NCBI GenBank assembly: GCA_937877715.1 | Contig: CALEHW010000046.1 | Coordinates: 89,690 to 153,689, forward strand | Origin: an uncultured Methylophaga sp. | GTDB lineage: Bacteria; Pseudomonadota; Gammaproteobacteria; GCF-002020875 | Direction of reading: 5' to 3' | Length of the DNA: 64,000 bases | Shown here: piece after piece, positions 4,299-59,291 of the stretch | Layout: every line of letters starts with the position of its first letter | Numbering within the stretch: the stretch's first letter is position 1 | Position numbers and translations under genes: made by a program | The notes under the pieces: model-generated | What the model was told of the DNA's origin: nothing | What the model saw: only the letters and a program-made list of their open reading frames with translations | The model's database searches: none

Positions 4299-5681
4299 CT
4301 ACATCAATCGAAGAAGATCATTGTATAGTGCCAGTGACATCAATCCAACCAGAAATACAATACCAAGCCTCTGACCAAAGGCCATCGCACTCTCGGAGAG
4401 TGGCTCACCGCGTACCCACTCTACCAGGTAGTAGAAGAGATGCCCCCCATCCAGCAACGGCACAGGCAACAGATTCAATACCCCCAGACTGACACTGATC
4501 AACCCCAGAAAAGAGAGAAACGGCACCACTCCACTCTCCATGGATATGCCAGCATAACGGGCGATACTGATTGGCCCACTCAACCCATCTGTAGAGGTTG
4601 CGCCCACGACCATGCGCCCCATCACCTGCAGGGTCATGGATGCCATCTCCCAGCTCTTCTCGGTGCCACGAACCAGCGCCTCCAGTGGGCCATATTGGGC
4701 CTCACGATAGTGCTCCTTGCGATATTGGGTCAGATCAACCGCTACACCAATCCTGCCGATTACCTCTTTTCCACTCTCTCCAGCGGGTAGCTCAACCTCA
4801 ACCATGGCTGGGGTCAGCTGTAGCGGGAAGATCACCCCATCACGCTCTATGATCAGCGACAACTGCTGCTCCGGACTCTCTCGCACCCACTCCACCCACT
4901 CTCTCCAGGAGGTTATCTCCTCACCCTCAACACTCAATATCAGATCTCCATCCTCAAGCCCGGAGAGCTCCGCCGCCCCGCCCGACACCAACTCGCCAAG
5001 TCTGGGAGGAATAGGGGGGCGGCTCATAGTGAATCCCAACTGCTCCAGCAGCTCCATCCCCTCAGGAATATTCTCCCTGAACGGATTTTGCAGGAGCAGT
5101 TTCTGCGCCACCCCGGAACTGCTGACTATCTCCAGAGGAATTTCATCCCCCAACACAACCGACCCAAGGATTCCCTCCAGCGCCTGCTGCCATATCCTTA
5201 CAGGCCTGCCACCAACCGAGATGATCTCATCTCCGGAGTGCATGCCGGACAGTGCAGAGATAGAGCCCTCATGAACCTCGCCAACTACAGGTTTCATCCC
5301 GCTGACCCCAACCATCTGAATCGAGCTGAATGCAATAATCGCAAAGATAAAATTAAACAGTGGTCCTGCCGCTACAATGGCTGCCCTGGCAGAGAGTGGC
5401 TGGGAGTCAAATGAGCGCTCCCTATCGGCCTCGGGGACCTCATCGTCACCACTCTCACCCAGCATCTTCACATAGCCGCCTAGGGGGAGAGCTGCAATCA
5501 CATATTCAGTACCATCCTTCTGACCAATTCTGCGCCACAACGGGCGTCCAAAACCTACCGAAAAACGCAGAACCTTCACCCCCACACGACGTGCCACCCA
5601 GAAGTGGCCAAACTCATGGACTGTTACCAGAATTCCGATGGCAACAACAAACGCTAGTAGCGCGTAGAGACCCGACCCCAT
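4299..5681 (-). CDS. rseP: RIP zinc metalloprotease RseP (site-2 protease)
   Basis: 460 aa with an HEFGHF zincin motif near the N-terminus, a PDZ-like middle and multiple TM helices. Sits in the dxr-rseP-bamA context. Confidence 0.9.
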   Translation of the reverse strand: MGSGLYALLAFVVAIGILVTVHEFGHFWVARRVGVKVLRFSVGFGRPLWRRIGQKDGTEYVIAALPLGGYVKMLGESGDDEVPEADRERSFDSQPLSARAAIVAAGPLFNFIFAIIAFSSIQMVGVSGMKPVVGEVHEGSISALSGMHSGDEIISVGGRPVRIWQQALEGILGSVVLGDEIPLEIVSSSGVAQKLLLQNPFRENIPEGMELLEQLGFTMSRPPIPPRLGELVSGGAAELSGLEDGDLILSVEGEEITSWREWVEWVRESPEQQLSLIIERDGVIFPLQLTPAMVEVELPAGESGKEVIGRIGVAVDLTQYRKEHYREAQYGPLEALVRGTEKSWEMASMTLQVMGRMVVGATSTDGLSGPISIARYAGISMESGVVPFLSFLGLISVSLGVLNLLPVPLLDGGHLFYYLVEWVRGEPLSESAMAFGQRLGIVFLVGLMSLALYNDLLRLM

Positions 5682-6875
5682 CTACCCTCTCCCCTTGATC
5701 AAAGCGGTGGCCACAGCGCGTGCCTCCTCATCCTTCGAGAATACCAGATCAAGATCTGTCACCTCCTCCACAGCAACCTCACTCATAGTCTGCTCAATAA
5801 CCTCTGCAATCTCCATATAATCAATCTCACCATTCAGAAAAGCTGCTACCGCAACCTCATTGGCGCCATTCAGTACCGTTGTTGCACTCCCTCCATGTAC
5901 CATTGCATCGATAGAGAGGCGCAGACATGGGTAACGCCCGAAATCTGGCTGCTCGAAATCAAGCTTCGCCACCTCGAACAGATCCAGATTCCCAACCCCT
6001 GAATCAATTCTCTCCGGCCAGCTGAGCGCATGTGCAATCGGCGTCCTCATATCTGGATTGCCCATCTGTGCCAGTACAGAACCATCGCTGTACTGCACCA
6101 TAGAGTGAATAATGCTCTGCGGATGAATCACCACCTCAATCTGCTCCGGCGCGGCCCCAAACAACCAGCAGGCCTCAATAAACTCCAGCCCCTTGTTCAT
6201 CATGGTTGCAGAGTCAACCGAGATCTTCCTCCCCATACTCCAGTTGGGATGGGCAACTGCCTCATCAGGAGTAACCGTCCCCAGAGTCTCTACTGCCCGT
6301 TTGCGGAAGGGACCGCCAGACCCAGTTAGCAGGATCTTCTCCACCCCCGCAGGAAACTTACCCAGAACCCCATGCTGAGGCAGGCACTGAAAAATCGCGT
6401 TATGTTCACTGTCGATCGGCAACAACTGCGCCCCATTGGCCACCACCTCCTCCATGAAGAGGTGACCAGTCATCACCAGAGACTCCTTATTTGCCAGCAA
6501 TATCCGCTTGCCTGCACGTACCGCAGCCAGCGTTGGTCGCAGACCTGCGGCACCAACAATTGCCGCCATTACCTGATCGACCGCGGGGGCAGATGCAATC
6601 TGCTCCATCCCCTCCACACCTGATAGTACCGTAGTCTCTGGAGCTATATCCCGCAGCAACCTCTCCAGCTGCTCCGCACCATCTGCCTCTGTAACTACTG
6701 CAAAATCAGGATGAAACTGCCCGCACTGCTCAGCCAGCAACTCAATCTGACTATGTGCTGTAAGTGCAACAACCCGATATTTGTCGGAATGTCTGGAGAT
6801 CACATCCAGCGTACTTCTGCCGATAGATCCAGTTGCCCCCAGGATGGCAACGCCCTGTATACGTCCCTCCCCCAT
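5682..6875 (-). CDS. dxr: 1-deoxy-D-xylulose 5-phosphate reductoisomerase
   Basis: 397 aa with N-terminal NADPH-binding [13 protein letters not shown], the Dxr hallmark. Sits between cdsA and rseP. Confidence 0.9.
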
Positions 6876-46795: not shown

Positions 46796-48688
46796 TTAGG
46801 CTGCCTCGCCTTCCTGTCCCTCATGATCCTCATCGAACAGGTGATACAGTGGAGCCTTCTCCATAGTGTACTCACCAGTCTTTGGATCACGGCGAGAAAC
46901 TGTCAGAACATGCCAGTTCTTATCATCCAGCTTCATTGCGTCACCACGGTAGTAGTAACCAGGCCAGCGAGTTTCCTTACGGAACAGGGTGTGCTGCATT
47001 ACAGACTCGGAGGCAAGCAGACGATGCTTCAGCTCCCATGCGCGCAGCAGCTCATGAATATCAGAAGCAGCAATCTTCTCCATATCCTCTTCCAGAGTCT
47101 TCATCTTCTTCAGACCGATGTTCAGCAGCTTATCGTTAGTCATGTAGTTCACCGTTACACCACCAGCGTACTCGTCCATCATCTTCTGCATACGATCAAG
47201 ACCTTGACGTGGGTTGATGTAGTTAGGGTTAACAGTTCCAGCAACGATATCGTTACGGTAAACTTTATAGTGCTCCATTGGTTTGTAGATCTCTTCCTTG
47301 CGATCATTGATCTGCTTCTCAGAGATGGTAATTCCATTGGCCTTACCATCATCGATGTACTTGCAAGCAGCCTTGGCAGCCAAACGACCTTCGGTGAATG
47401 AACCAGAAGAGAACGCATGTGGTGTACCACCAACCGCATCACCAGCACCAAACAGACCTTCTACAGTAGTCATACGGTTGTAACCCCAGAAATACTCATC
47501 AGGAGAAACATCCTCAGGACCAGAACACCATGCACCACAACCGGTAGCGTGTGAACCCATTACATAAGGCTCAGACGTAGTCAGCTCAGGGTTCTCATAC
47601 TTTGGATTTACATCAGTTGCAGCCCAAAGTACAGCCTGACCAACTGTCATACCCAAGAAGTTGTGCCAGCCAATCTCCTCAAGGTGAGGATCCTGGAATG
47701 AGTGCATAGTAACCATGTGAATCGGGCCACGTCCTGCATTGACCTCGTTGATCAGAGCATGGTTACGCAAACATGTTGGGATTGGCTTATGAGACAAGTG
47801 CTGGTTTTCTGTATCCAGATATTCCTTACCAACCATCTCACTCAGAGCCGGGAACCACTTGGACTCATACTCCTCACCATTACAGTTCTGGGTGTAAGTC
47901 TTAAGGTGTAGGAAGTAAGCACCAACCGGGCCGTAACCATCCTTGAATCGAGCAAGTACGATACGGTTTTCCATCTGGGTCATCTTCGCACCAGCCTGAA
48001 TCATCAGACCATATGCAGATCCAGAAGACCACGGTGCATACCATACACGTCCAGCACCCTCACCAACGGAGCGAGGCTTGAATATGTTAGATGCACCACC
48101 AGCACCAACAATAACAGTCTTGGACTTGAATACGTGGTAGTTACCAGTACGTACGTTGAAACCAACAGCACCAGCAACACGATTCTCTTTGCTCTCATCC
48201 ATCAGCAGGTGAGTAACACAGATACGGTTGTAGACCTTGTCAGCAGACTTGGTAGCAGCCTCAGCCACAAGCGGCTTGTAGGACTCACCGTGAATCATGA
48301 TCTGCCAGCGACCCTCACGCAGATAGGCGCCAGTCTTCGAGTCACGCATGATAGGCATGCCCCACTCCTCGAACTGGTGTACTGCGGAGTCAACATGACG
48401 CGCCATGTCAAAAGCAAGATCCTCACGAACCATTCCCATCAGGTCCATACGTGCGTAGCGAACGTGATCTTCCGGATTATTCTCTCCGAAACGTGTTCCC
48501 ATGTAGCAGTTAATTGCATAAAGACCCTGTGCAACTGCACCGGAACGGTTGATATTTGCCTTCTCAGCAATAACGATTTTCTTGTCTTGGCCCCAGAAGC
48601 GCGCCTCCCAGGCTGCACCAGTACCGCCGAGCCCTGCGCCCGCGACTAGAACATCGATATTGTCTTCTACGATAGTTTTGTAAGCCAT
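46796..48688 (-). CDS. aprA: Adenylylsulfate (APS) reductase alpha subunit
   Basis: 630-aa FAD flavoprotein with a dinucleotide-binding N-terminus (VLVAGAGLGGTGAAWEA) and fumarate-reductase-family fold. Immediately preceded by aprB, so the stop and start are tightly coupled. Confidence 0.9.
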   Translation of the reverse strand: MAYKTIVEDNIDVLVAGAGLGGTGAAWEARFWGQDKKIVIAEKANINRSGAVAQGLYAINCYMGTRFGENNPEDHVRYARMDLMGMVREDLAFDMARHVDSAVHQFEEWGMPIMRDSKTGAYLREGRWQIMIHGESYKPLVAEAATKSADKVYNRICVTHLLMDESKENRVAGAVGFNVRTGNYHVFKSKTVIVGAGGASNIFKPRSVGEGAGRVWYAPWSSGSAYGLMIQAGAKMTQMENRIVLARFKDGYGPVGAYFLHLKTYTQNCNGEEYESKWFPALSEMVGKEYLDTENQHLSHKPIPTCLRNHALINEVNAGRGPIHMVTMHSFQDPHLEEIGWHNFLGMTVGQAVLWAATDVNPKYENPELTTSEPYVMGSHATGCGAWCSGPEDVSPDEYFWGYNRMTTVEGLFGAGDAVGGTPHAFSSGSFTEGRLAAKAACKYIDDGKANGITISEKQINDRKEEIYKPMEHYKVYRNDIVAGTVNPNYINPRQGLDRMQKMMDEYAGGVTVNYMTNDKLLNIGLKKMKTLEEDMEKIAASDIHELLRAWELKHRLLASESVMQHTLFRKETRWPGYYYRGDAMKLDDKNWHVLTVSRRDPKTGEYTMEKAPLYHLFDEDHEGQEGEAA

Positions 48689-49173
48689 TAGTGATATACC
48701 CCTTCTTTCATGATTAGGCCATTGGACTCAAGGGTGTGCAAACCACCTTCATCGAGACGAATGTATTTTGGTTCGTTAAACAGTAGCAGGTCATTATCAC
48801 GATGCTCCTGAGTTGGAGCAGGGACATCAGCAAGCTGTGGAATTTCCTGTCCCCATGGCTTTGTTGTAATAGGCGCCAGCAGATTCAGATCAGTCTCACC
48901 ATTGCGAGACTTGATGCGCCATGCGATAACACCCTTCTCCTCATCACGGTCCACACGTACAGAGTGACCCAGAGGGGCAAAGTCGGCATAACCACGAACA
49001 TCAATTGCATGGTGAGGACATGCCTTCACGCATGAGTAGCACTCCCAACACATATTAGGCTCAATATTGTAGGCACGACGATATTTATCATCGATATGCA
49101 TGATATCTGATGGACAGATATCAACACAGTGTCCACAACCGTCGCAACGGGTCATATATACAAAAGTAGGCAT
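48688..49173 (-). CDS. aprB: Adenylylsulfate reductase beta subunit (2x[4Fe-4S])
   Basis: 161 aa with two ferredoxin motifs (CDGCGHCVDICP and CWECYSCVKACP) and the AprB-specific C-terminal tail. Confidence 0.9.
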   Translation of the reverse strand: MPTFVYMTRCDGCGHCVDICPSDIMHIDDKYRRAYNIEPNMCWECYSCVKACPHHAIDVRGYADFAPLGHSVRVDRDEEKGVIAWRIKSRNGETDLNLLAPITTKPWGQEIPQLADVPAPTQEHRDNDLLLFNEPKYIRLDEGGLHTLESNGLIMKEGVYH

Positions 49174-49213
49174 AATCTTTCCTTTTTGTTTAGATTAATC
49201 TTGAATCTTAAAA

Positions 49214-50035
49214 TCAGTAGTGGCTAGGCTCTTCGCGCTTAATGCCAAGACCCATGTTGGATGGGTTTTTACCCATGTACTCAGGGATATCTGGAAATCT
49301 TGCATGCGTAGCAGCAGCAGACAGGTCAGGTATCTCAGGCAGATTCTCATTAGAACCATCAGCATGAACTGTACGCTTGTTATAAGCCGCAGCAGGCTTG
49401 AAGAACATATGGGAGAACTTAGACCAGTAAACGCCGCCGAATAGTGAAGCTGTAGAAATGATCACTAGGGCAAACCATGCTCCGGTGCCACCACCAGTTA
49501 GTGACCAACCTATAGCTGCTGTTGATGTAGCCATCAGCGAGAGGCTGAACATATCCCTTCTAAGCTTGATATTTGTCCATGTATTACCTTCTGCAGCCAC
49601 ATCAACCTTGAATACAAACCAGAACCACCAGCTACCTACGAACAAACTGATAGCACCCAGATGCCAGAACAAGTTCAATGTTGCATCGGCAGCATTATCA
49701 CCAAAAATCATCATTGCAGTTGCTGCATTAAATGAGATAAAACCATACATGGTCAACAGATGTACCAGCCTACGAGTCGGGTTACAGAACTCTCCAGACA
49801 GCGCCACATCAGTAACAACAGTCTTGACCAGAATTGAGGCAGCAGGAGCAGTTTTTGTTGCATTCTGCTTATCTTTTGCAGCTTTCTCGAAGAAGTACTG
49901 AGCACTCTTCTTGTGCATCATATCCAGCACAGTCATTACAATAACTAGCGCAATCATTACGATCACATACGTCTGCATAGACGCATATGTGATGCCGGCA
50001 TCCACTAATGACTGGATAGGGGTATTACTTAACAT
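49214..50035 (-). CDS. aprM: APS reductase membrane anchor AprM-like protein
   Basis: 273 aa with about 5 predicted TM helices and a hydrophilic C-terminal tail. It sits between sat and aprB, as aprM does in sat-aprMBA loci of purple sulfur bacteria. Confidence 0.65.
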   Translation of the reverse strand: MLSNTPIQSLVDAGITYASMQTYVIVMIALVIVMTVLDMMHKKSAQYFFEKAAKDKQNATKTAPAASILVKTVVTDVALSGEFCNPTRRLVHLLTMYGFISFNAATAMMIFGDNAADATLNLFWHLGAISLFVGSWWFWFVFKVDVAAEGNTWTNIKLRRDMFSLSLMATSTAAIGWSLTGGGTGAWFALVIISTASLFGGVYWSKFSHMFFKPAAAYNKRTVHADGSNENLPEIPDLSAAATHARFPDIPEYMGKNPSNMGLGIKREEPSHY

Positions 50036-50091
50036 AGTGTTTTCCTTTTAAAATTAAATAAAAATAAACATTAACAATAATCAAGAACGAC

Positions 50092-51309
50092 TTACTGGGC
50101 AGAGTGCCCCTTCATCTCAATCTTTACATTCTCATCATCACTAAGACTTGCATAGTAGTCCTGAAGCACCTTGGCAACCTCTGGACGACTGAAGGTAGCA
50201 GGAAGCTCCTCACCCTCAGACAACATCTTGCGTACCTTGGTACCAGACAACAGAATACGATCATCCTTGCCATGAGGACAGGTCTTCATAGAAGCCATTC
50301 CGTCACAGGCATTACACCAGAAGGTCCAGTCGATCTTCAGTGGCTTAGTCTCCAGTGCGCCCTCAGGGATTTCGTCAAAGATCGACTGTGCATCAAAGGG
50401 GCCATAAAAATCGCCGACACCAGCGTGGTCACGACCAACAATCAGGTGCGAACAGCCGTAGTTCTGGCGGAATACGGCGTGCAACAGCGCCTCACGGGGG
50501 CCTGCAAAACGCATATCCAGCGGATAACCTGCCTGTACAACACTGTTGGGAACAAAATAGTTATCAATCAGAGTCTGGATCGCCTCAGAGCGAACCTCTG
50601 CAGGGATATCACCCTTCTTCAGCTTACCCAGTGTGGAGTGAACCAGAACACCGTCCAGAGTCTCTACCGCAATTTTGGCAAGATACTCATGAGAGCGATG
50701 CATTGGGTTACGGGTCTGGAATGCCGCAATAGTATTCCAACCCTTTGACTCGAATAACGCACGGGTCTGCTCAGGTGTCATGAATTGCTCACCATAAGTC
50801 TCGGGGAATCCACCCAGAGAGAGGACCTTGATTGGACCGGCAAGATTCACCTCTCCCTGATCCATAACCATCTGCACACCTGGATGCTCCAGATCAGTGG
50901 TCTTGTATACAGACATGCACTCATGCTCTTTATCAATACCGTATTTCTCGGTAACTGTCATGGTTGCAACAATATTCCCGCTTTCCTCATCAAACAGAGC
51001 AACATCAGAACCCTCATGGGTGTTGTCGGCAGTGGCACTGTCAGTAGAGATGGTTACCGGAATTGGCCAGAACAGGCCGCTCTCCATCTTGTATGAGTCA
51101 CAAACACCCTTCCAGTCAGCGTGGTTCATGAAACCGTCAAGTGGGGTAAACCCACCGATACCCAGCATATAGATATCACCAGCCTCACGTGAGGTAATCG
51201 TTACCTTGGGCAGCGTCTCTGCGCGTGCCTTCTCATCCTCGAGGGCGATCCCCTCAAGCAGTAGCGGCTTCAACTCACCGCCACCATGTGGTTTAACTAA
51301 ATTTGACAT
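50092..51309 (-). CDS. sat: Sulfate adenylyltransferase (dissimilatory-type ATP sulfurylase)
   Basis: 405 aa with ATP-sulfurylase motifs [11 protein letters not shown] and GRDHAGVG. Heads the sat-aprM-aprB-aprA operon. Confidence 0.9.
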
Positions 51310-52326: not shown

Positions 52327-53868
52327 TTGCAGAATCCGGCTGTTACTATGTACAGTCATCCAATGCACTCTAAACACCGCCTCTCTCTCCTCACTCAGAC
52401 AGGAATTATCATTGGGATAATCAGCCTGCTGGCAGTCATCGGCATTAGCAGCTCGGTTTTTATCACCCAGACCATTCAAGGTGCAGGAACCACCATCAAC
52501 ACCTCCGGCACCCTGCGCATGTTCGCCTACAAAATCGCCACCCAGATGATGCGGGATCAGCGTGAGGAGGATCCCACCTCAACTGACATACGCGAGCTGA
52601 TCAGTCGCTTTGAATCCCAACTCAACCACCCATCTCTGCAACACTCCATTCCGCAACCATCACAGAACCCGAAAGAATCAGACACTGTTGACTTACATCC
52701 GCTCTACACACTTTACAACTCTATCCAGTGGCGCTGGCATGAGGAGATTCAACCACTACTGCTAAGCTATGCAGCACTTCTGGATATGGAGAGCGGCGAG
52801 GAGTCCATGGGCAAGCTCAAGCACACCATCCACAACTCCTACCAGCAAAGCTACCTGTCGATAATTGATGATTTCGTATTTGACATCAACAACATGGTTA
52901 AACTGATCGAAGAGCAGACTGAGTCCAGAATTGAGCTACTACGCAACATTGCGTATGTATCACTACCCCTACTGCTACTCTCCATTCTGGCGGCACCATT
53001 TCTACTCTACTACAGGGTTCTGGTTCCATTAAAAGATCTACTTGAGATCTCGCAACATGTACGCCAACGCGACTTCTCCCGCCAGGCTAAATATACTCGT
53101 AAGGATGAACTGGGCGAACTAGCCAGAGCCTTCAACCTGATGAACTCAGACCTCTCTGCCACCTATGCCGAGCTGGAAGAGCGGATTATGGAGAAGACCC
53201 AAGCCCTGATTGATGAGTCCAACAGGATCACCCTTATGGAGGAGCGTAATATCATCGCCCAGGAGCTACACGACTCCCTAGCCCAATCCATCTTCTATAT
53301 CAACATTCAGATTAGCCGAATCAAGACCCTGATAAGAAGAGAAGCCCCGCCAAGCCAGCTACTCCCCATCATTTATGAGTTTGCGACAACCAATGATGAG
53401 GCCGATCGTCAGCTACGGGAGCTGATCTCCACCTTCAGAATCAAAATCAACCCCGAGGGGCTGACAGCCGCAATCAACGAAATTATAACCAAATATATGG
53501 GGAGAGAATCTGTAACACTAAAGTTTTACAACCATATTCCCGATTTCTCCTTCACCCACAGCGAGGAGGTCAACATGATTCAGATTACCCAAGAGGCGAT
53601 CTCCAACATCATCAAACATGCCAACGCAACCTCCGGCACCATTGTGCTTGACCACGATGGTGAGAACAACCTAGTGACACTGACTATTGATGATGACGGG
53701 GGCGGAATCCCCGAAAACCCTTACCGCCATAACCATTTTGGTCTCAAAAACATGGAGGAGCGCGCAGAAAACATCAATGGGAATATCTCAATTTACCAAC
53801 AAGCAGATGGCGGCACCAGGATAGAGCTTGATTTCAACCCAGCACTAACCCAGGAGAGCAGGCTGTAG
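52327..53868 (+). CDS. narX: Nitrate/nitrite sensor histidine kinase NarX-like
   Basis: Periplasmic sensor domain with a P-box-like TSGTLRMFAYKI, two TM helices, HAMP, an H-box ELHDSLAQ and a HATPase_c domain. Confidence 0.8.
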   Translation: MQNPAVTMYSHPMHSKHRLSLLTQTGIIIGIISLLAVIGISSSVFITQTIQGAGTTINTSGTLRMFAYKIATQMMRDQREEDPTSTDIRELISRFESQLNHPSLQHSIPQPSQNPKESDTVDLHPLYTLYNSIQWRWHEEIQPLLLSYAALLDMESGEESMGKLKHTIHNSYQQSYLSIIDDFVFDINNMVKLIEEQTESRIELLRNIAYVSLPLLLLSILAAPFLLYYRVLVPLKDLLEISQHVRQRDFSRQAKYTRKDELGELARAFNLMNSDLSATYAELEERIMEKTQALIDESNRITLMEERNIIAQELHDSLAQSIFYINIQISRIKTLIRREAPPSQLLPIIYEFATTNDEADRQLRELISTFRIKINPEGLTAAINEIITKYMGRESVTLKFYNHIPDFSFTHSEEVNMIQITQEAISNIIKHANATSGTIVLDHDGENNLVTLTIDDDGGGIPENPYRHNHFGLKNMEERAENINGNISIYQQADGGTRIELDFNPALTQESRL

Positions 53869-53982
53869 TTGGCTGCGGCAGGCATGGGTAACTAGCTAAA
53901 GTAATAGCGCAGGCAAGCCATATTCCTCTATACTCCAAAAGAATATTATAAAAAATACCCCTGACCAAAGGCTAAAAAGACA

Positions 53983-54633
53983 ATGAGTGAATTTGAATCA
54001 AAATCTATCTCTCTGCTACTGATTGATGACCACCCACTTATACGCAAGGGCATTATCCAACTACTGGAGCTCCACGAGGGGATTCAGCTAGCGGGCGAGG
54101 CAGATGGTGGTGCCGATGGGCTGAAACTGATCGAGAAAAAAGAGCCAGATATGGTGCTGCTTGATCTCAACATGAGCGAGATGGATGGCCTCACCACCCT
54201 GAAAAAAATCAAGAAGAGATGGCCGAATATTCGGGTGGTGATCCTTACAGTCTCCGACAACCCACAGAATATTATCCAGGCATTTCGTAACAAGGCAGAT
54301 GGCTACCTGCTGAAAAATGCAGATCCGGAGAAGATCGTGGACCATTTGATCCAGGTAATGCACGGGGTGACAATTGTCAGTCCTGAGATCGCCAAGATCC
54401 TTGCCCGGTCACGCACCGATAAAAATAATCTGCCGGAACTCAATCTAACCCGCCGCGAGGAGGAGGTGTTGCGCCTAATTGCCGAGGGGCTCTCCAACCA
54501 GGATGTTGGAAATCGTCTTGGTATTTCGGTCTGGACCGCCAAGGTACATGCCAAACACATCCTCAAGAAACTTGGTCTCAATAGCCGTAATGAACTGATC
54601 GTCTGGGCTATCCGAGAGGGGATGACCAGCTAA
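53983..54633 (+). CDS. narL: Nitrate/nitrite response regulator NarL-like (REC plus LuxR-type HTH)
   Basis: 216 aa with a receiver domain (LLIDDHPLIRKG ... DLNM) and a C-terminal LuxR/FixJ HTH (LTRREEEVLRLIAEGLSNQDVGNRLGISVWTAKVHAKHILKKL). Confidence 0.85.
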   Translation: MSEFESKSISLLLIDDHPLIRKGIIQLLELHEGIQLAGEADGGADGLKLIEKKEPDMVLLDLNMSEMDGLTTLKKIKKRWPNIRVVILTVSDNPQNIIQAFRNKADGYLLKNADPEKIVDHLIQVMHGVTIVSPEIAKILARSRTDKNNLPELNLTRREEEVLRLIAEGLSNQDVGNRLGISVWTAKVHAKHILKKLGLNSRNELIVWAIREGMTS

Positions 54634-54901
54634 TCAGGAGCCTGTCCGATAACAGGATCCCAAATCACCTAAACCTTCTGTGGATGCCCACCTGCATGAG
54701 CAGGGTACTACTGAGGAGTGCCGTCACCATCCCGAGAATCCAGATTGAGACGAGTGGCCCGAGCAGGAACAGTCCGATTATCAAGATCTAAGAGGCTCTT
54801 CTCAGGAGTAGCCACTTGTGTGAACGGAGCCACCCCTTCTCCTCTGCCGCTGCTGTGCCGACCGAGCGGTTTGTCACTCTGCCCATAACCCCTCCCCTCT
54901 T

Positions 54902-55474
54902 CTATGCATCACTCTGCCCAGCCGAATCCCGGTGCTGCAACGTTAACGCATCCACTGGACATGGTGCAATACAGGCCCCGCAGCCAGTACATTTGCCTGC
55001 ACTCATCTCCATCTGTACTGCACCACCCGCCCGTGGACGAAAACGGAATACACGTTCCAGACACTGGTCTCCACAGATCTGGCAGACTACCCCCTTTTGT
55101 GCAATACAGGTGTAGCTCACCCGCACCTCCAGACCCCAGGGATCACCATGCTCCTCCGTGGAGAGAAAGCGGAGTGCCCCAGGCTCACAATGGGCCACAC
55201 ACTCCTCACAGAAGGTGCACTCCCCACGCCTGAATTCAACCACCGGGAATTTGCCCCGCCCCTCTAGCAGAATCTGCTCTGGACAGTGCTTGATGCACTC
55301 CCCGCAACGACTGCAGGTCTCGGTAAACTCGAACTCCTCCAGTGCCCATGGTGGACGCATGGGGCGATTTTTGCCGCTCACATCACCGCGCAAAAATTGA
55401 GCACGGCTCACTCCATGGCTACTCGGCACCTTGCTCTCTCGACCATCTTTTCTCTTTTTCAGGAATTCAAACAT
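54902..55474 (-). CDS. napF: Ferredoxin-type protein NapF-like (4 Cys clusters)
   Basis: 190 aa with an N-terminal RPPWA motif and four CxxCxxCxxxC(P)-type clusters. It aligns along its length with E. coli NapF (RPPWS...CTRCDACINAC...). Confidence 0.7.
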   Translation of the reverse strand: MFEFLKKRKDGRESKVPSSHGVSRAQFLRGDVSGKNRPMRPPWALEEFEFTETCSRCGECIKHCPEQILLEGRGKFPVVEFRRGECTFCEECVAHCEPGALRFLSTEEHGDPWGLEVRVSYTCIAQKGVVCQICGDQCLERVFRFRPRAGGAVQMEMSAGKCTGCGACIAPCPVDALTLQHRDSAGQSDA

Positions 55475-57846: not shown

Positions 57847-58161
57847 CTATTTGGCCGCCTTTGATCCTGTACCAGTTACACCCTTGTTGTCAGTCCAGGT
57901 AACAGTGATCTTGTCACCCTTCTCACCGGCAACCTTGATCCGCAGATATGGATTTTTCGAGATTGTGGTGTTGACATCAGCGTTCATGAATACAACACCG
58001 TTCTTCTCTGCAACCACGGTCTGAATGAAATGCTCAGGAATCTTCTCTCCTGTCTTCTTATCCTTTCTAAATCCGGTCTCCATAGGATGGGTCATCAAAC
58101 ATTTGATATCGATAATACCCTTCTTCGCCTTTGCTCTAAGCTTTACTGCACTCTTTGCCAT
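57847..58161 (-). CDS. soxZ: Thiosulfate-oxidation carrier complex protein SoxZ
   Basis: 104 aa. IKCLMTHPMETGFRKDKKTGEKIPEHFIQTV...NPYLRIKV aligns with SoxZ (ISHKMESGQRKDADGKLIPRSII...NPYFEF). Confidence 0.8.
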   Translation of the reverse strand: MAKSAVKLRAKAKKGIIDIKCLMTHPMETGFRKDKKTGEKIPEHFIQTVVAEKNGVVFMNADVNTTISKNPYLRIKVAGEKGDKITVTWTDNKGVTGTGSKAAK

Positions 58162-58207
58162 GTTCTTGTCCTCTATATTCTATTTATTGGATTCAGTCAA
58201 AATGAAT

Positions 58208-58645
58208 CTAAGCACATCCGCCGACAGTTACCTTAACCTGGGTCTTGGTGTTCAAGGTGCCTGATACGGTCTTGACCACGCCGTAGACATCACCAGTCTT
58301 ACTCATCTTGAGTCGGGTCGAGACGAATGGAATCGCACCCTCACCCATACGGTAGGTGGCAGCTAGGGGACGACTATTGGCAGCGGCCACAATGCTGATG
58401 CTCTCAACCCCGTCAACGCCTGTGGCATCAATCGTAATGGGAACTACTGCACCGTTCTCGGCAATCTCGGGGGCTTTGATCTTGACTGAGCCACTGGCAG
58501 TGCCAGTATCGCCGAAGCTGCTTGCCTCCATTACCGCCTTGGGCCATGCAGCAAGCGCAGCACGTGGCAGCAGTAGACCTGCGCCGAGAGCTGCTGTAAT
58601 AGCACTACCCGCAAGTGTCCCCTTCAGAAATAGTCGTCTTCTCAT
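58208..58645 (-). CDS. soxY: Sulfur carrier protein SoxY (Tat signal) with a non-canonical C-terminus VTVGGCA
   Basis: The start is taken at MRRRLFLKGTLAGS (a twin-arginine motif with a good AAGGAG Shine-Dalgarno upstream). IAENGAVVP is identical to the conserved SoxY block. The track ORF extends 55 codons upstream. Confidence 0.8.
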   Translation of the reverse strand: MRRRLFLKGTLAGSAITAALGAGLLLPRAALAAWPKAVMEASSFGDTGTASGSVKIKAPEIAENGAVVPITIDATGVDGVESISIVAAANSRPLAATYRMGEGAIPFVSTRLKMSKTGDVYGVVKTVSGTLNTKTQVKVTVGGCA

Positions 58646-58890
58646 GGATTTCTCCTTAGTTATTGTAGAAACAGTTCTCTCTTGCAGCCCCACTGGTGCA
58701 CCAAAGCGGATGCTGAAGATTGGACTGTAAACAAAACCACCGCCCCTGTCCACACACTGTTTGTCTCCAGAAACGCCTCGAAGAGTGTAACCACACAGGG
58801 CACTATTCAATGGTTCAATTGTTTGTTATATTCAGGAGGCTGACTTTGGTCAGTTTTTATAAAAAAGGTAAACACCAAAAAGGAGAAGTC

Positions 58891-59205
58891 ATGAAGAAGA
58901 CATTAATAGCATTAATTGCCACAACGTTTGTCGCATCCAGTGCCTCGGCATTTATGAGCGGAGATGACAACCAGTCTGGCGCTGGCACCGGTTCTGCCGA
59001 TGGTGCAGTCGATGCCAGTGGACGCGGCGCAGGCAAGGGATCTGGTGATGCTGAGGGTAACTTCAGCATGTCCATCAACGCATCAGGCAAGGGTTCTTCC
59101 AGCGCTGAAGCCGATATGGATGCTGCCGAAAATGCCCGCGTGCAAGGTAATACAGACCTTAGAACAGAGAGTTCATCAGGGTATCCTGTACCACCTGCGC
59201 AGTAG
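58891..59205 (+). CDS. Small secreted low-complexity Gly/Ser/Ala/Asp-rich protein
   Basis: Strong RBS (AAAGGAGAAG) before the ATG at 58891. Signal peptide MKKTLIALIATTFVASSASA, then a degenerate repeat body (SGAGTGSADGAVDASGRGAGKGSGDAEGNF...ASGKGSSSAEAD). A clean terminator follows. Confidence 0.5.
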   Translation: MKKTLIALIATTFVASSASAFMSGDDNQSGAGTGSADGAVDASGRGAGKGSGDAEGNFSMSINASGKGSSSAEADMDAAENARVQGNTDLRTESSSGYPVPPAQ

Positions 59206-59246
59206 ATAACCGGTATAACTGGCCTGCCTCTTTGGTGGACCATAAA

Positions 59247-59291
59247 AAGGGCACAATCACAGTGTGATGCTGGTTGTGCCCTTTTTTTTAT
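59247..59291 (+). terminator. Rho-independent terminator after the small secreted protein gene
   Basis: aaagggcacaa-tcacagtgtgatgctgg-ttgtgccc followed by a T8 run. Confidence 0.6.

What the first reader, a model, noticed from the sequence alone, without database searches (positions are those of the whole stretch)
58891..59205. Small secreted Gly/Ser/Ala/Asp-rich repetitive protein next to soxYZ: possible structural/sulfur-globule-type or novel periplasmic protein
It has a strong RBS, a clear Sec signal peptide, a mature part of about 80 aa built from degenerate G/S/A/D repeats, and its own terminator. It lies head to head with soxYZ. Sulfur globule envelope proteins of purple sulfur bacteria are likewise small, secreted, repetitive, glycine-rich structural proteins. 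This one lacks their Tyr richness, so it may be a different class, for example a disordered periplasmic carrier or matrix protein.
Basis: partly seen in the sequence, partly recalled or inferred. Interest (0 to 1): 0.55.

Follow-up and report, generated by a model that had tools for sequence, protein, structure and literature searches.

The report
Divergent, aromatic-poor sulfur globule protein
This small secreted glycine/serine-rich protein is real and is an unannotated, unusually aromatic-poor relative of the proteins that coat stored sulfur droplets in sulfur-oxidising bacteria; its position next to soxYZ is an accident of this genome, and relatives of it are also carried by phages next to sulfur-oxidation genes.

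Summary
The ORF at 58891-59205 (+) is real. It has an AAGGAG ribosome-binding site, a Sec-type signal peptide (…SSASA|F), an 84-residue acidic, cysteine-free Gly/Ser/Ala/Asp-rich mature part, and a strong terminator. It matches no Pfam or NCBIfam model above cutoff.

It belongs to a small, strongly conserved family (dN/dS about 0.17). That family is homologous to Pfam SGP (PF17228, "Sulphur globule protein"):
- Profile-profile probability is 98-99%.
- The mature protein scores 34.5 bits against a profile built from PF17228-positive proteins; the best of 20,000 shuffles scores 12.6.

The family occurs in about 15 marine low-oxygen gammaproteobacterial MAGs, with up to about 10 copies per genome, often in tandem. 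It also occurs on phage-like contigs, where it lies just upstream of dsrC and tusA.

None of 53 genomic loci from other genomes has soxYZ nearby, and the closest syntenic relatives lack soxYZ. The sox adjacency is therefore incidental.

The window copy belongs to an aromatic-poor clade (Phe+Trp+Tyr 3.6%, against 12-20% in recognised SGPs). The most likely role is a periplasmic sulfur-globule coat protein. This is inferred and has not been shown. I rate it a new variant of a known kind, of moderate interest.

The parts
58891..59205 (+). Coding sequence of the 104-aa SGP-like pre-protein, including the TAG stop at 59203-59205
   Evidence: ORF list and sequence; 21 or more protein homologues; 53 genomic and 8 viral loci; dN/dS about 0.1-0.17
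58891..58950 (+). Sec-type signal peptide (residues 1-20, MKKTLIALIATTFVASSASA); predicted cleavage before Phe21
   Evidence: Inspection of n/h/c regions and the A-x-A motif; conserved in family alignments A1 and A4. No predictor was run
58951..59202 (+). Mature 84-aa acidic, Cys-free Gly/Ser/Ala/Asp-rich protein. The conserved core EGNFSMSINASGKG is residues 55-68, nt 59053-59094
   Evidence: Composition. F58 and M60 are the only invariant columns among 54 family and SGP sequences. N63, A64, G66 and K67 are invariant in the close family. The HMM alignment to SGP-positive proteins covers residues 5-69 of the mature part
58880..58885 (+). Ribosome-binding site AAGGAG, 5 nt upstream of the ATG
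   Evidence: Sequence; also present in L021 and L048
58786..58853 (+). Conserved upstream block of this orthologue group: GTAACCA…CACTATTCAA…TTCAATTGTTTGTTATATT (a -10-like TATATT at 58827-58832) followed by the inverted repeat CTGAC-N4-GTCAG (58840-58853). Probable own promoter and operator
   Evidence: Aligned with the upstream regions of L021 and L048, which lack soxYZ, and partly with L029. Promoter function is inferred; the consensus scan did not call it
59245..59289 (+). Intrinsic terminator: hairpin (stem core 59249-59256 / 59274-59281) plus a T8 run (59282-59289)
   Evidence: RNA fold -23.2 kcal/mol, z = -4.1, 0 of 200 shuffles as stable
57847..58645 (-). Neighbouring soxZ (57847-58161) and soxY (58208-58645). 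These are divergently transcribed context, not a conserved partner
   Evidence: PF08770 and TIGR04490 for SoxZ; PF13501 for SoxY, with TIGR04488 below cutoff. Absent beside all homologues outside this genome

Best explanation
The gene encodes a divergent member of the sulfur globule protein (SGP, SgpA/SgpB-type) family. The pre-protein is exported by Sec and cleaved after ASA. The 8-kDa mature protein is intrinsically disordered in solution. I propose that it is one of several paralogous coat proteins that adsorb to the periplasmic elemental-sulfur/polysulfane globules this organism should form while oxidising sulfide or thiosulfate, since it carries soxYZ, sat and aprA. The proposed contact element is the only strongly conserved non-low-complexity segment, G-N-F-S-M-S-I-N-A-S-G-K-G. 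Its alternating pattern puts Phe, Met and Ile on one face of a beta-strand. The flanking acidic Gly/Ser/Asp-rich segments would stay hydrated and negatively charged, keeping the sulfur colloidally stable and accessible for later oxidation through the Dsr/Apr/Sat route. The window copy belongs to an aromatic-poor orthologue group with a shortened Tyr/Pro tail, so it may be a specialised coat component in the way SgpC differs from SgpA/B. Shown here: the gene is real, has export-signal features, is homologous to SGP, has a restricted multi-copy distribution, is under purifying selection, has its own promoter block and terminator, and its sox adjacency is not conserved. Inferred: globule localisation, the strand-contact model and the specialised role.
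For: Homology:
- Divergent family members found with the window family's profile pass the Pfam SGP PF17228 cutoff: P0038 30.5 bits, P0042 39.6, P0048 36.8, against a cutoff of 26.7.
- hhalign of the window family against PF17228-positive proteins gives 98.8% probability, E 1e-16. Without signal peptides it gives 98.0%, E 2e-13.
- A profile of PF17228-positive proteins retrieves the family members P0005, P0011 and P0004 at E 2e-14 to 4e-13 in a database of 5.8e9 sequences.
- The mature window protein scores 34.5 bits against an HMM built from mature PF17228-positive proteins. The best of 20,000 same-composition shuffles scores 12.6.
- Sources name relatives 'sulfur globule family protein' (Ca. 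Thiopontia autotrophica) and 'sulfur globule protein CV1' (Solemya velum symbiont).

Shared architecture: signal peptide, F/W + D/N-rich N-terminus, G-x-G region, FSM core, acidic stretch, Y/P tail.

Sgp-like genomics: there are multiple dispersed and tandem paralogues per genome. Published accounts report one to six sgp genes per organism, four putative in Ca. Thioglobus autotrophicus (PMC10386293, PMC6509183).

Sulfur context: the window carries soxYZ, sat and an aprA-like gene. dsrC lies beside homologues in L001 and in the phage-like loci L007-L011 and L066.

Constraint: dN/dS has a median of 0.17.
Against: - The window protein itself scores only 12.4 bits (E 0.29) against PF17228 (cutoff 26.7) and matches no NCBIfam model.
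- It has one Tyr and 3.6% aromatic residues, against 12-20% in PF17228-positive proteins, so the property usually linked to Sgp function is largely missing.
- No experimentally characterised Sgp sequence (A. vinosum SgpA/B/C) could be retrieved. The link to proven globule proteins therefore rests on Pfam and source names, not on a direct comparison.
- No expression, localisation or globule data exist for this organism.
- AF2 gives no structure, so the beta-strand contact model is unsupported by modelling.
- No paralogue lies within the 64-kb window.
Confidence: 0.6

Rival explanations
1. It is a generic disordered, acidic periplasmic protein, for example a cation-binding, hydration or stress protein, with no specific role at sulfur globules. 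On this view the resemblance to SGP reflects shared low-complexity composition, or ancient common descent without shared function.
For: Composition is strongly biased and the protein is predicted to be disordered. The direct Pfam SGP hit is sub-threshold. Weak sub-threshold hits to unrelated Gly-rich models (TrAA12, Big_6) show that the composition attracts spurious matches. Aromatic residues are depleted.
Against: Same-composition shuffles never exceed 12.6 bits, against 34.5 for the real sequence. The match centres on the specific FSMSINA core. The order of segments is shared with SGPs. Phage copies sit next to dsrC and tusA. Where gene content could be checked, carriers hold sulfur-oxidation genes: the window and L001.
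Confidence: 0.15
2. It is an accessory of periplasmic nitrate respiration or molybdoenzyme maturation, because the orthologue sits between moaA and the cytochrome-c/napC/napA/napB cluster.
For: The order moaA, then this gene, then the nap cluster is conserved in the window, L006, L021 and L048. narX/narL-like and napF-like genes lie nearby.
Against: The gene has its own conserved promoter block and its own terminator. Other members of the same aromatic-poor clade (L013, L053) and all other paralogues are not near moaA or nap. Between this gene and nap, L006 carries three other genes (TauE, HMA, unknown) that the window lacks. To my knowledge no known Nap accessory protein resembles it. The homology points to SGP.
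Confidence: 0.05
3. It is a phage-derived cargo gene whose role is phage-related, for example modifying the envelope or blocking superinfection, and which has spread to many chromosomal sites by prophages or recombination.
For: Homologues occur on 8 IMG/VR contigs and on further phage-like contigs, behind consensus sigma-70 promoters. The family is multi-copy and dispersed in host genomes. In L065 a porin gene follows it.
Against: Viral copies form a clade separate from all chromosomal copies. Viral loci have 32-38% GC and chromosomal loci 40-58%. The chromosomal orthologue has a stable syntenic position and a conserved promoter. No phage genes flank the window copy. Linkage to dsrC and tusA fits a sulfur-metabolism cargo better.
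Confidence: 0.06

Closest known systems
Sulfur globule proteins SgpA/SgpB (CV1/CV2) of Allochromatium vinosum and the Pfam family SGP (PF17228)
   Same: Both are small proteins (8-14 kDa mature) exported by Sec and rich in glycine. They share the order of segments: aromatic/acidic N-terminus, G-x-G region, G-x-F-S/T-M-S/T-I/F core, acidic stretch, Tyr/Pro tail. Both occur as several paralogues per genome in sulfur-oxidising Gammaproteobacteria. Profile-level homology was shown here. Published properties are in PMC10386293.
   Different: The window protein fails the Pfam cutoff (12.4 against 26.7 bits). It has 3.6% aromatic residues against 12-20%, a single Tyr, more Ser and Ala, and a truncated tail (…SSSGYPVPPAQ instead of …PYYGYAPVAPQAP…K). 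I could not compare it directly with the A. vinosum sequences. That PF17228 contains them is from my memory and the family name, not tested here.
'Sulfur globule family protein' of Candidatus Thiopontia autotrophica (P0026; MBC8519925.1) and its relatives P0055-P0069
   Same: This is the nearest named relative. The window family's profile hits it at E 2.8e-21. It has the same signal peptide, the same GRG…DMDGSFSMTINASGRAH core, and comes from marine low-oxygen sulfur oxidisers.
   Different: It is larger (about 13.5 kDa mature), has 13-17% aromatic residues, and carries an extra C-terminal charged tail NPTAGYEAHRK…EERRAA that is absent here.
Putative Sgp paralogues of Candidatus Thioglobus autotrophicus EF1 (SUP05 clade)
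   Same: This marine low-oxygen gammaproteobacterium forms periplasmic sulfur globules. It has four putative sgp paralogues, three of them detected in the proteome (PMC6509183). It offers the same ecological and physiological setting as proposed here.
   Different: Their sequences are not in the held text or supplements, so relatedness could not be tested. The motif scan of species-representative genomes listed no Ca. Thioglobus record among its hits.
SgpD (Alvin_2515) of A. vinosum
   Same: It is a Sec-exported protein associated with globules and has a somewhat repetitive sequence (PMC10386293).
   Different: SgpD has regularly spaced prolines and two long, confidently predicted alpha-helices, and is almost restricted to Chromatiaceae. 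The window protein is predicted to have no helices.
Phage auxiliary sulfur genes (dsrC/tusE, dsrA, soxYZ, soxC, soxD)
   Same: Phage-like contigs carry a homologue of this protein 0.5-0.9 kb upstream of dsrC, with tusA in L007-L011, the arrangement described for sulfur auxiliary metabolic genes (PMC8190135).
   Different: An sgp-type gene is not among the auxiliary genes discussed in that paper, and I found no paper reporting one. The window copy itself is chromosomal.

Membership tests
SGP / SgpA-SgpB-type sulfur globule proteins (Pfam PF17228) | Score above the Pfam PF17228 gathering cutoff (26.7 bits) | tested here: not met
   The window protein scores 12.4 bits, E 0.29. 18 of 22 close family members give only weak hits, best E 4.9e-4.
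SGP / SgpA-SgpB-type sulfur globule proteins (Pfam PF17228) | Demonstrable homology to PF17228-positive proteins | tested here: met
   hhalign gives 98.8% (E 1e-16), and 98.0% (E 2e-13) without signal peptides. The reciprocal profile search hits family members at E about 1e-13 to 1e-14. The mature protein scores 34.5 bits; the maximum of 20,000 shuffles is 12.6. Intermediate sequences pass the Pfam cutoff.
SGP / SgpA-SgpB-type sulfur globule proteins (Pfam PF17228) | Cleavable Sec signal peptide directing export to the periplasm | tested here: met
   MKK, a 12-residue hydrophobic core and SSASA|F; no Cys, no RR; conserved across the family. Judged by inspection only, without a predictor.
SGP / SgpA-SgpB-type sulfur globule proteins (Pfam PF17228) | Small mature size (about 7-14 kDa), glycine-rich | tested here: met
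   84 aa, 8.1 kDa, 18% Gly. PF17228-positive proteins are 7.6-14.4 kDa with 15-21% Gly.
SGP / SgpA-SgpB-type sulfur globule proteins (Pfam PF17228) | Abundant, regularly placed aromatic residues (Tyr/Phe/Trp) and a Tyr/Pro-rich C-terminal tail | tested here: not met
   The window protein has 3.6% F+W+Y, one Tyr, and the tail SSSGYPVPPAQ. The rest of the close family has 6-12% and PF17228-positive proteins 12-20%. The window's whole orthologue clade is depleted (2.5-6.6%).
SGP / SgpA-SgpB-type sulfur globule proteins (Pfam PF17228) | Several paralogues per genome | tested here: inconclusive
   Related MAGs carry 1-8 loci and up to about 10 copies, including tandem arrays. No second copy lies in this 64-kb window, and the rest of this genome was not available.
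SGP / SgpA-SgpB-type sulfur globule proteins (Pfam PF17228) | Host is a sulfur oxidiser that deposits intracellular sulfur (incomplete Sox, rDsr pathway) | tested here: inconclusive
   The window has soxYZ, sat and an aprA-like gene. dsrC lies next to homologues. The presence of rDsrAB, the absence of soxCD, and actual globule formation are unknown.
SGP / SgpA-SgpB-type sulfur globule proteins (Pfam PF17228) | Physical presence in the globule envelope; induction by sulfide or thiosulfate | not testable with these tools
   This needs proteomics of purified globules, fluorescent or immunogold localisation, or transcriptomics.
SgpD-type globule protein | Long, confidently predicted alpha-helices and regularly spaced prolines | tested here: not met
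   The AF2 model has no secondary structure, pLDDT 45, and only 3 Pro. SgpD features are from PMC10386293.
Periplasmic or cytoplasmic sulfur carriers (SoxY, DsrC, TusA type) | Conserved cysteine that carries sulfane sulfur | tested here: not met
   The mature protein has no Cys, and none is conserved in the family.
Double-glycine-leader secreted peptides (suggested by the C39 peptidase/ABC exporter near L003) | GG-type leader instead of a Sec signal; consistent linkage to a C39 exporter | tested here: not met
   It has a Sec-type signal with an A-x-A site. An exporter was annotated near only one homologue, L003-L005, among the loci whose neighbours were annotated.

The most novel reading that the evidence does not exclude
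The DDNQSG…GNFSMSINASGKG…ADMDAAENAR family, and especially the window's aromatic-poor clade, is a functionally distinct class of hydrophilic, acidic coat or dispersant proteins. These would set the size, surface charge and accessibility of periplasmic sulfur globules in marine low-oxygen sulfur oxidisers. Phages would have captured the gene and express it from consensus promoters together with dsrC and tusA, to remodel or mobilise the host's sulfur store during infection. That would make it a new kind of structural auxiliary metabolic gene.
Probability: 0.25. Interest if true: 0.6.

Novelty: new variant of a known kind. Interest (0 to 1): 0.35.

Why it matters
Sulfur globule proteins are poorly understood. 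There are no structures, only a handful of proteins characterised in one purple sulfur bacterium, and annotation is patchy. The sulfur oxidisers of marine oxygen-minimum zones and euxinic basins matter for ocean sulfur, nitrogen and carbon budgets, and stored sulfur changes their physiology (PMC6509183).

This work links an unannotated multi-copy family in those organisms to the SGP family. The family is labelled 'hypothetical protein' in NCBI records. The link gives a concrete marker for sulfur storage in metagenomes. It also supplies a natural series of variants, from aromatic-rich to aromatic-poor, for testing what makes a protein bind elemental sulfur.

The phage-borne copies next to dsrC and tusA suggest that phages manipulate not only sulfur-oxidation enzymes and carriers but also the storage compartment. 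For the window gene itself the outcome is modest: it is a divergent member of a known kind, and the sox adjacency that drew attention is incidental.

Tried and rejected
- **Direct family scans.** Pfam and NCBIfam gave nothing significant for the window protein. Sub-threshold hits to TrAA12 and Big_6, and profile hits to long Ig-repeat proteins (P0032, P0051, P0053), were set aside as matches driven by composition or a short motif.
- **AlphaFold2.** With a 54-sequence alignment it gave pLDDT 45 and no secondary structure, so I ran no fold search.
- **EF1 Sgp sequences.** I looked for the Ca. Thioglobus autotrophicus EF1 Sgp sequences in the paper's supplements. They are not held as text.
- **A. 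vinosum SgpA/B/C.** I tried to reach named sequences with a profile of PF17228-positive proteins. Only annotation-derived 'CV1' names from Solemya symbionts came back. Including the OmpA fusion P0080 also polluted that profile with OmpA hits.
- **GenBank phage collection.** Searches with the phage-type homologue, a whole phage-like locus and two large neighbouring proteins found no match.
- **Viral origin of soxYZ.** SoxZ has no viral relatives in IMG/VR.
- **Paralogue in the window.** None was found.
- **Terminator and promoter scan.** It found neither the terminator (its loop is too long for the rule) nor a promoter for this gene. The terminator was confirmed by folding.
- **Taxonomy of the window.** Exact-sequence look-up returned unnamed NCBI, Logan and ENA records only.
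- **Rejected ideas.** A sulfur carrier (no Cys); a GG-leader peptide (Sec signal; exporter linkage in one locus only); soxYZ as a functional partner (adjacency is unique to this genome).

Full report
**1. The observation**

The ATG is at 58891 and the TAG stop at 59203-59205, giving 104 codons. AAGGAG lies 5 nt upstream of the ATG.

The N-terminus MKKTLIALIATTFVASSASA|FMSG has the n, h and c regions and the A-x-A site of a Sec/signal-peptidase-I substrate. It has neither a lipobox Cys nor a twin arginine. I judged this by inspection, because no predictor was available, but the same signal is conserved in all full-length homologues.

The mature protein is 84 aa and 8.1 kDa, with pI 4.1. It is 18% Gly, 17% Ser, 15% Ala and 14% Asp+Glu, with one Tyr and no Cys.

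'Degenerate repeats' overstates the case. There is one weak internal duplication of a G-x-G-rich unit of about 20 residues. It scores 47 against 30 +/- 5 in shuffles, and 9 of 1000 shuffles reach that score.

Downstream lies a hairpin of -23.2 kcal/mol (z = -4.1) followed by eight T. The simple terminator scan missed it because its loop exceeds the rule.

soxY (58208-58645) and soxZ (57847-58161) are on the opposite strand, 245 bp away, and are confirmed by Pfam and NCBIfam.

**2. It is a real, constrained gene**

A protein search found 21 homologues at 55-100% identity. A motif scan of species-representative genomes found 53 loci, and a scan of IMG/VR found 8.

The alignment shows a well-defined family:
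- a signal peptide ending SASAF;
- then FGG-DDNQSGYGTG-ADGAFDG-GRGAGKG-DAEGNFSMSINASGKGSS-MEADMDAAENAR-NGTTD-RTE;
- then a Tyr/Pro tail.

Pairwise dN/dS has a median of 0.17. It is about 0.1 for the window gene against its nearest relatives, and synonymous sites are saturated. The sequence is therefore under purifying selection. It is not a drifting low-complexity ORF.

**3. What family it is**

The window protein has no significant Pfam or NCBIfam match. Against PF17228 it scores 12.4 bits, with a cutoff of 26.7.

A profile of the family searched against 1.84 billion representative proteins found only 37 hits at E <= 1e-3. Several of the more divergent hits pass the Pfam SGP ('Sulphur globule protein', PF17228) cutoff: P0038 at 30.5 bits, P0042 at 39.6 and P0048 at 36.8. 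Others fall just below it.

Three further tests support the link:
- hhalign between the family and 20 PF17228-positive proteins gives 98.8% probability (E 1e-16). After removing signal peptides it gives 98.0% (E 2e-13). The alignment centres on G-x-G…G-x-F-S-M-S/T-I/F-N-A-x-G…D-M.
- In the other direction, a profile of PF17228-positive proteins retrieves family members at E 2e-14 to 4e-13 in a 5.8-billion-sequence database.
- As a control for composition, the mature window protein scores 34.5 bits against an HMM built only from mature PF17228-positive proteins. None of 20,000 shuffles of its own sequence exceeds 12.6 bits.

Sources name relatives 'sulfur globule family protein' (Ca. Thiopontia autotrophica) and 'sulfur globule protein CV1' (Solemya velum symbiont). 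The order of segments is the same in recognised SGPs.

I conclude that the protein is a divergent homologue of the SGP family. One gap remains. I could not obtain the experimentally characterised A. vinosum SgpA/B/C sequences, so the last link to proven globule proteins rests on family and source names.

**4. Distribution and context**

The family occurs in about 15 species-level MAGs out of 185,579 species genomes. All come from marine low-oxygen waters and are labelled 'uncultured Piscirickettsiaceae', Thiotrichales or Gammaproteobacteria; they include Saanich Inlet bins. One locus sits in a probably mis-binned 3.9-kb contig.

The family is multi-copy: up to 8 loci per MAG, with tandem arrays of two or three copies. 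This fits published accounts of one to six sgp genes per organism, and of four putative genes in Ca. Thioglobus autotrophicus, which forms periplasmic sulfur globules (PMC10386293, PMC6509183).

soxY and soxZ are not near any of the 53 loci. They occur only beside the gene in the window's own genome (L073).

The nearest orthologues (L006, L021, L048) keep the order radical-SAM gene, moaA, this gene, then cytochrome c, napC, napA and napB, but without soxYZ. The conserved upstream block of the gene is present in those genomes too. It comprises CACTATTCAA…TTCAATTGTTTGTTAT, a -10-like hexamer, and a CTGAC-N4-7-GTCAG inverted repeat. The gene is therefore an independent transcription unit, and the soxYZ pair is a local insertion.

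The window does come from a sulfur oxidiser: it carries soxYZ, ATP sulfurylase and an AprA-like flavoprotein. dsrC lies beside homologues in L001.

**5. Paralogue structure**

A neighbour-joining tree of 51 distinct copies resolves several conserved clades. The window copy groups with L029, L048, L021, L006, L053 and L013. This clade is depleted in aromatic residues (2.5-6.6% F+W+Y) and has shortened tails. Other chromosomal clades have 6-13% aromatic residues, and PF17228-positive proteins have 12-20%.

The same MAGs hold both kinds. CAYFMF01, for example, has L021 together with the tandem array L036. This looks like division of labour among paralogues, as described for SgpA/B and SgpC.

**6. 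Phage copies**

Homologues lie on IMG/VR contigs (L065-L072) and on similar metagenome contigs (L007-L011). These contigs have 32-38% GC, against 40-58% for the MAG loci. Their genes are mostly without Pfam hits. They have PHROG matches to exonuclease, endonuclease, helicase, a split NAD-dependent ligase and ThyX.

In L007-L011 and L066 the gene lies 0.5-0.9 kb upstream of dsrC, and of tusA in L007-L011. The three upstream regions I read (L007, L065, L066) each carry a perfect TTGACA-17-TATAAT promoter. The viral copies form their own clade.

The main survey of phage sulfur auxiliary genes does not mention sgp, and I found no paper that does. The viral status rests on IMG/VR classification and gene content. 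No GenBank phage matched.

**7. Mechanism**

This is the best-supported reading, and it is partly inferred.
- Export by Sec and cleavage after ASA follow from the sequence.
- Homology places the protein among globule coat proteins.
- Across 54 family and SGP sequences the only invariant residues are F58 and M60.
- They lie in N-F-S-M-S-I-N-A, whose alternation puts Phe, Met and Ile on one face of an extended strand.
- I propose this amphipathic strand contacts the sulfur surface. The acidic Gly/Ser/Asp-rich flanks would form a hydrated, charged layer.
- The monomer is predicted to be disordered. That fits a protein that orders only at an interface, but it does not test the model.
- The aromatic-poor clade may be a more hydrophilic coat component.

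Confidence that the protein is an SGP homologue is about 0.8. Confidence that it works as a globule coat protein is about 0.6.

**8. Rivals**

- A generic disordered periplasmic protein whose similarity is driven by composition. The shuffle control, the shared segment order and the phage linkage to dsrC argue against this.
- A Nap or molybdenum-cofactor accessory. The synteny holds in four genomes only, and the gene has its own promoter and terminator.
- A phage-derived gene with a phage-specific role. The viral clade is separate, and the chromosomal position is stable.
- A sulfur carrier is rejected, because the mature protein has no cysteine.

**9. Verdict**

The sox adjacency used as the argument is incidental, and the 'different class or carrier' alternative is not supported. 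The protein is a new, unannotated variant of a known kind. Interest for the window gene is moderate to low. The aromatic-poor clade and the phage-borne copies raise it somewhat.

Noticed in passing
L007 8001-8345, L066 7992-8342, L065 7329-7655 (also L008-L011, L067-L072): Phage-like contigs (IMG/VR, 32-38% GC) carry SGP-like genes. The three upstream regions read (L007, L065, L066) have a perfect TTGACA-17-TATAAT promoter. In L007-L011 and L066 the gene lies 0.5-0.9 kb upstream of dsrC, with tusA in L007-L011. The viral copies form a clade of their own. The sulfur auxiliary-gene survey I read (PMC8190135) does not report this, and I found no paper that does.
   Followed up: partly
window 58208-58645 (-) and 57847-58161 (-): The soxYZ pair is an orphan: there is no other sox gene within several kb. 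It is absent from the same site in the syntenic relatives L006, L021 and L048, so it looks like a local insertion. SoxY ends …VTVGGCA rather than the canonical GGCGG and scores 111 bits, below the 125-bit cutoff of TIGR04488. SoxZ has no close relatives in IMG/VR.
   Followed up: partly
proteins P0080 (272 aa) and P0121 (292 aa): An SGP domain (PF17228) is fused to an OmpA-type peptidoglycan-binding domain (PF00691). This would tether a globule coat protein to the cell wall.
   Followed up: no
proteins P0042, P0048, P0068, P0076: These SGP proteins have two modules: the G-x-G…FSM…NA-x-G unit occurs twice in one polypeptide. This matches the weak internal duplication seen inside the window protein.
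   Followed up: no
proteins P0026, P0055-P0069, P0075: The 'Thiopontia-like' SGP branch carries a conserved, charged C-terminal extension, NPTAGYEAHRK…EERRAA…, that is absent from other branches. It may be a helical interaction module.
   Followed up: no
window 58786-58853; L021 about 5896-5965; L048 about 5074-5143: A conserved non-coding block lies upstream of the aromatic-poor orthologues. It contains TTCAATTGTTTGTTAT(A/G)(T/G)T and an inverted repeat CTGA(C)-N4-7-GTCAG. It is a candidate promoter plus operator or 5'-UTR hairpin, and its regulator is unknown.
   Followed up: partly
window 46796-51309 (-) and 52327-55474: Sulfite-oxidation genes (an aprA-like gene at 46796-48688 and sat at 50092-51309) lie next to a NarX/NarL-like two-component pair (52327-54633) and a napF-like ferredoxin (54902-55474). 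Sulfur oxidation and nitrate respiration genes are therefore clustered.
   Followed up: partly
L003 250-8573 (also L004, L005): One homologue sits beside a Crp/Fnr-family regulator, a 649-aa protein with no Pfam hit, and a C39-peptidase ABC exporter with HlyD and TolC-like partners. I saw this linkage in no other annotated locus, and its meaning is unclear.
   Followed up: no
L065 8210-9049: On a phage-like contig, a Gram-negative porin gene (PF13609) lies immediately downstream of the SGP-like gene. The contig also carries thyX and a split NAD-dependent DNA ligase.
   Followed up: no
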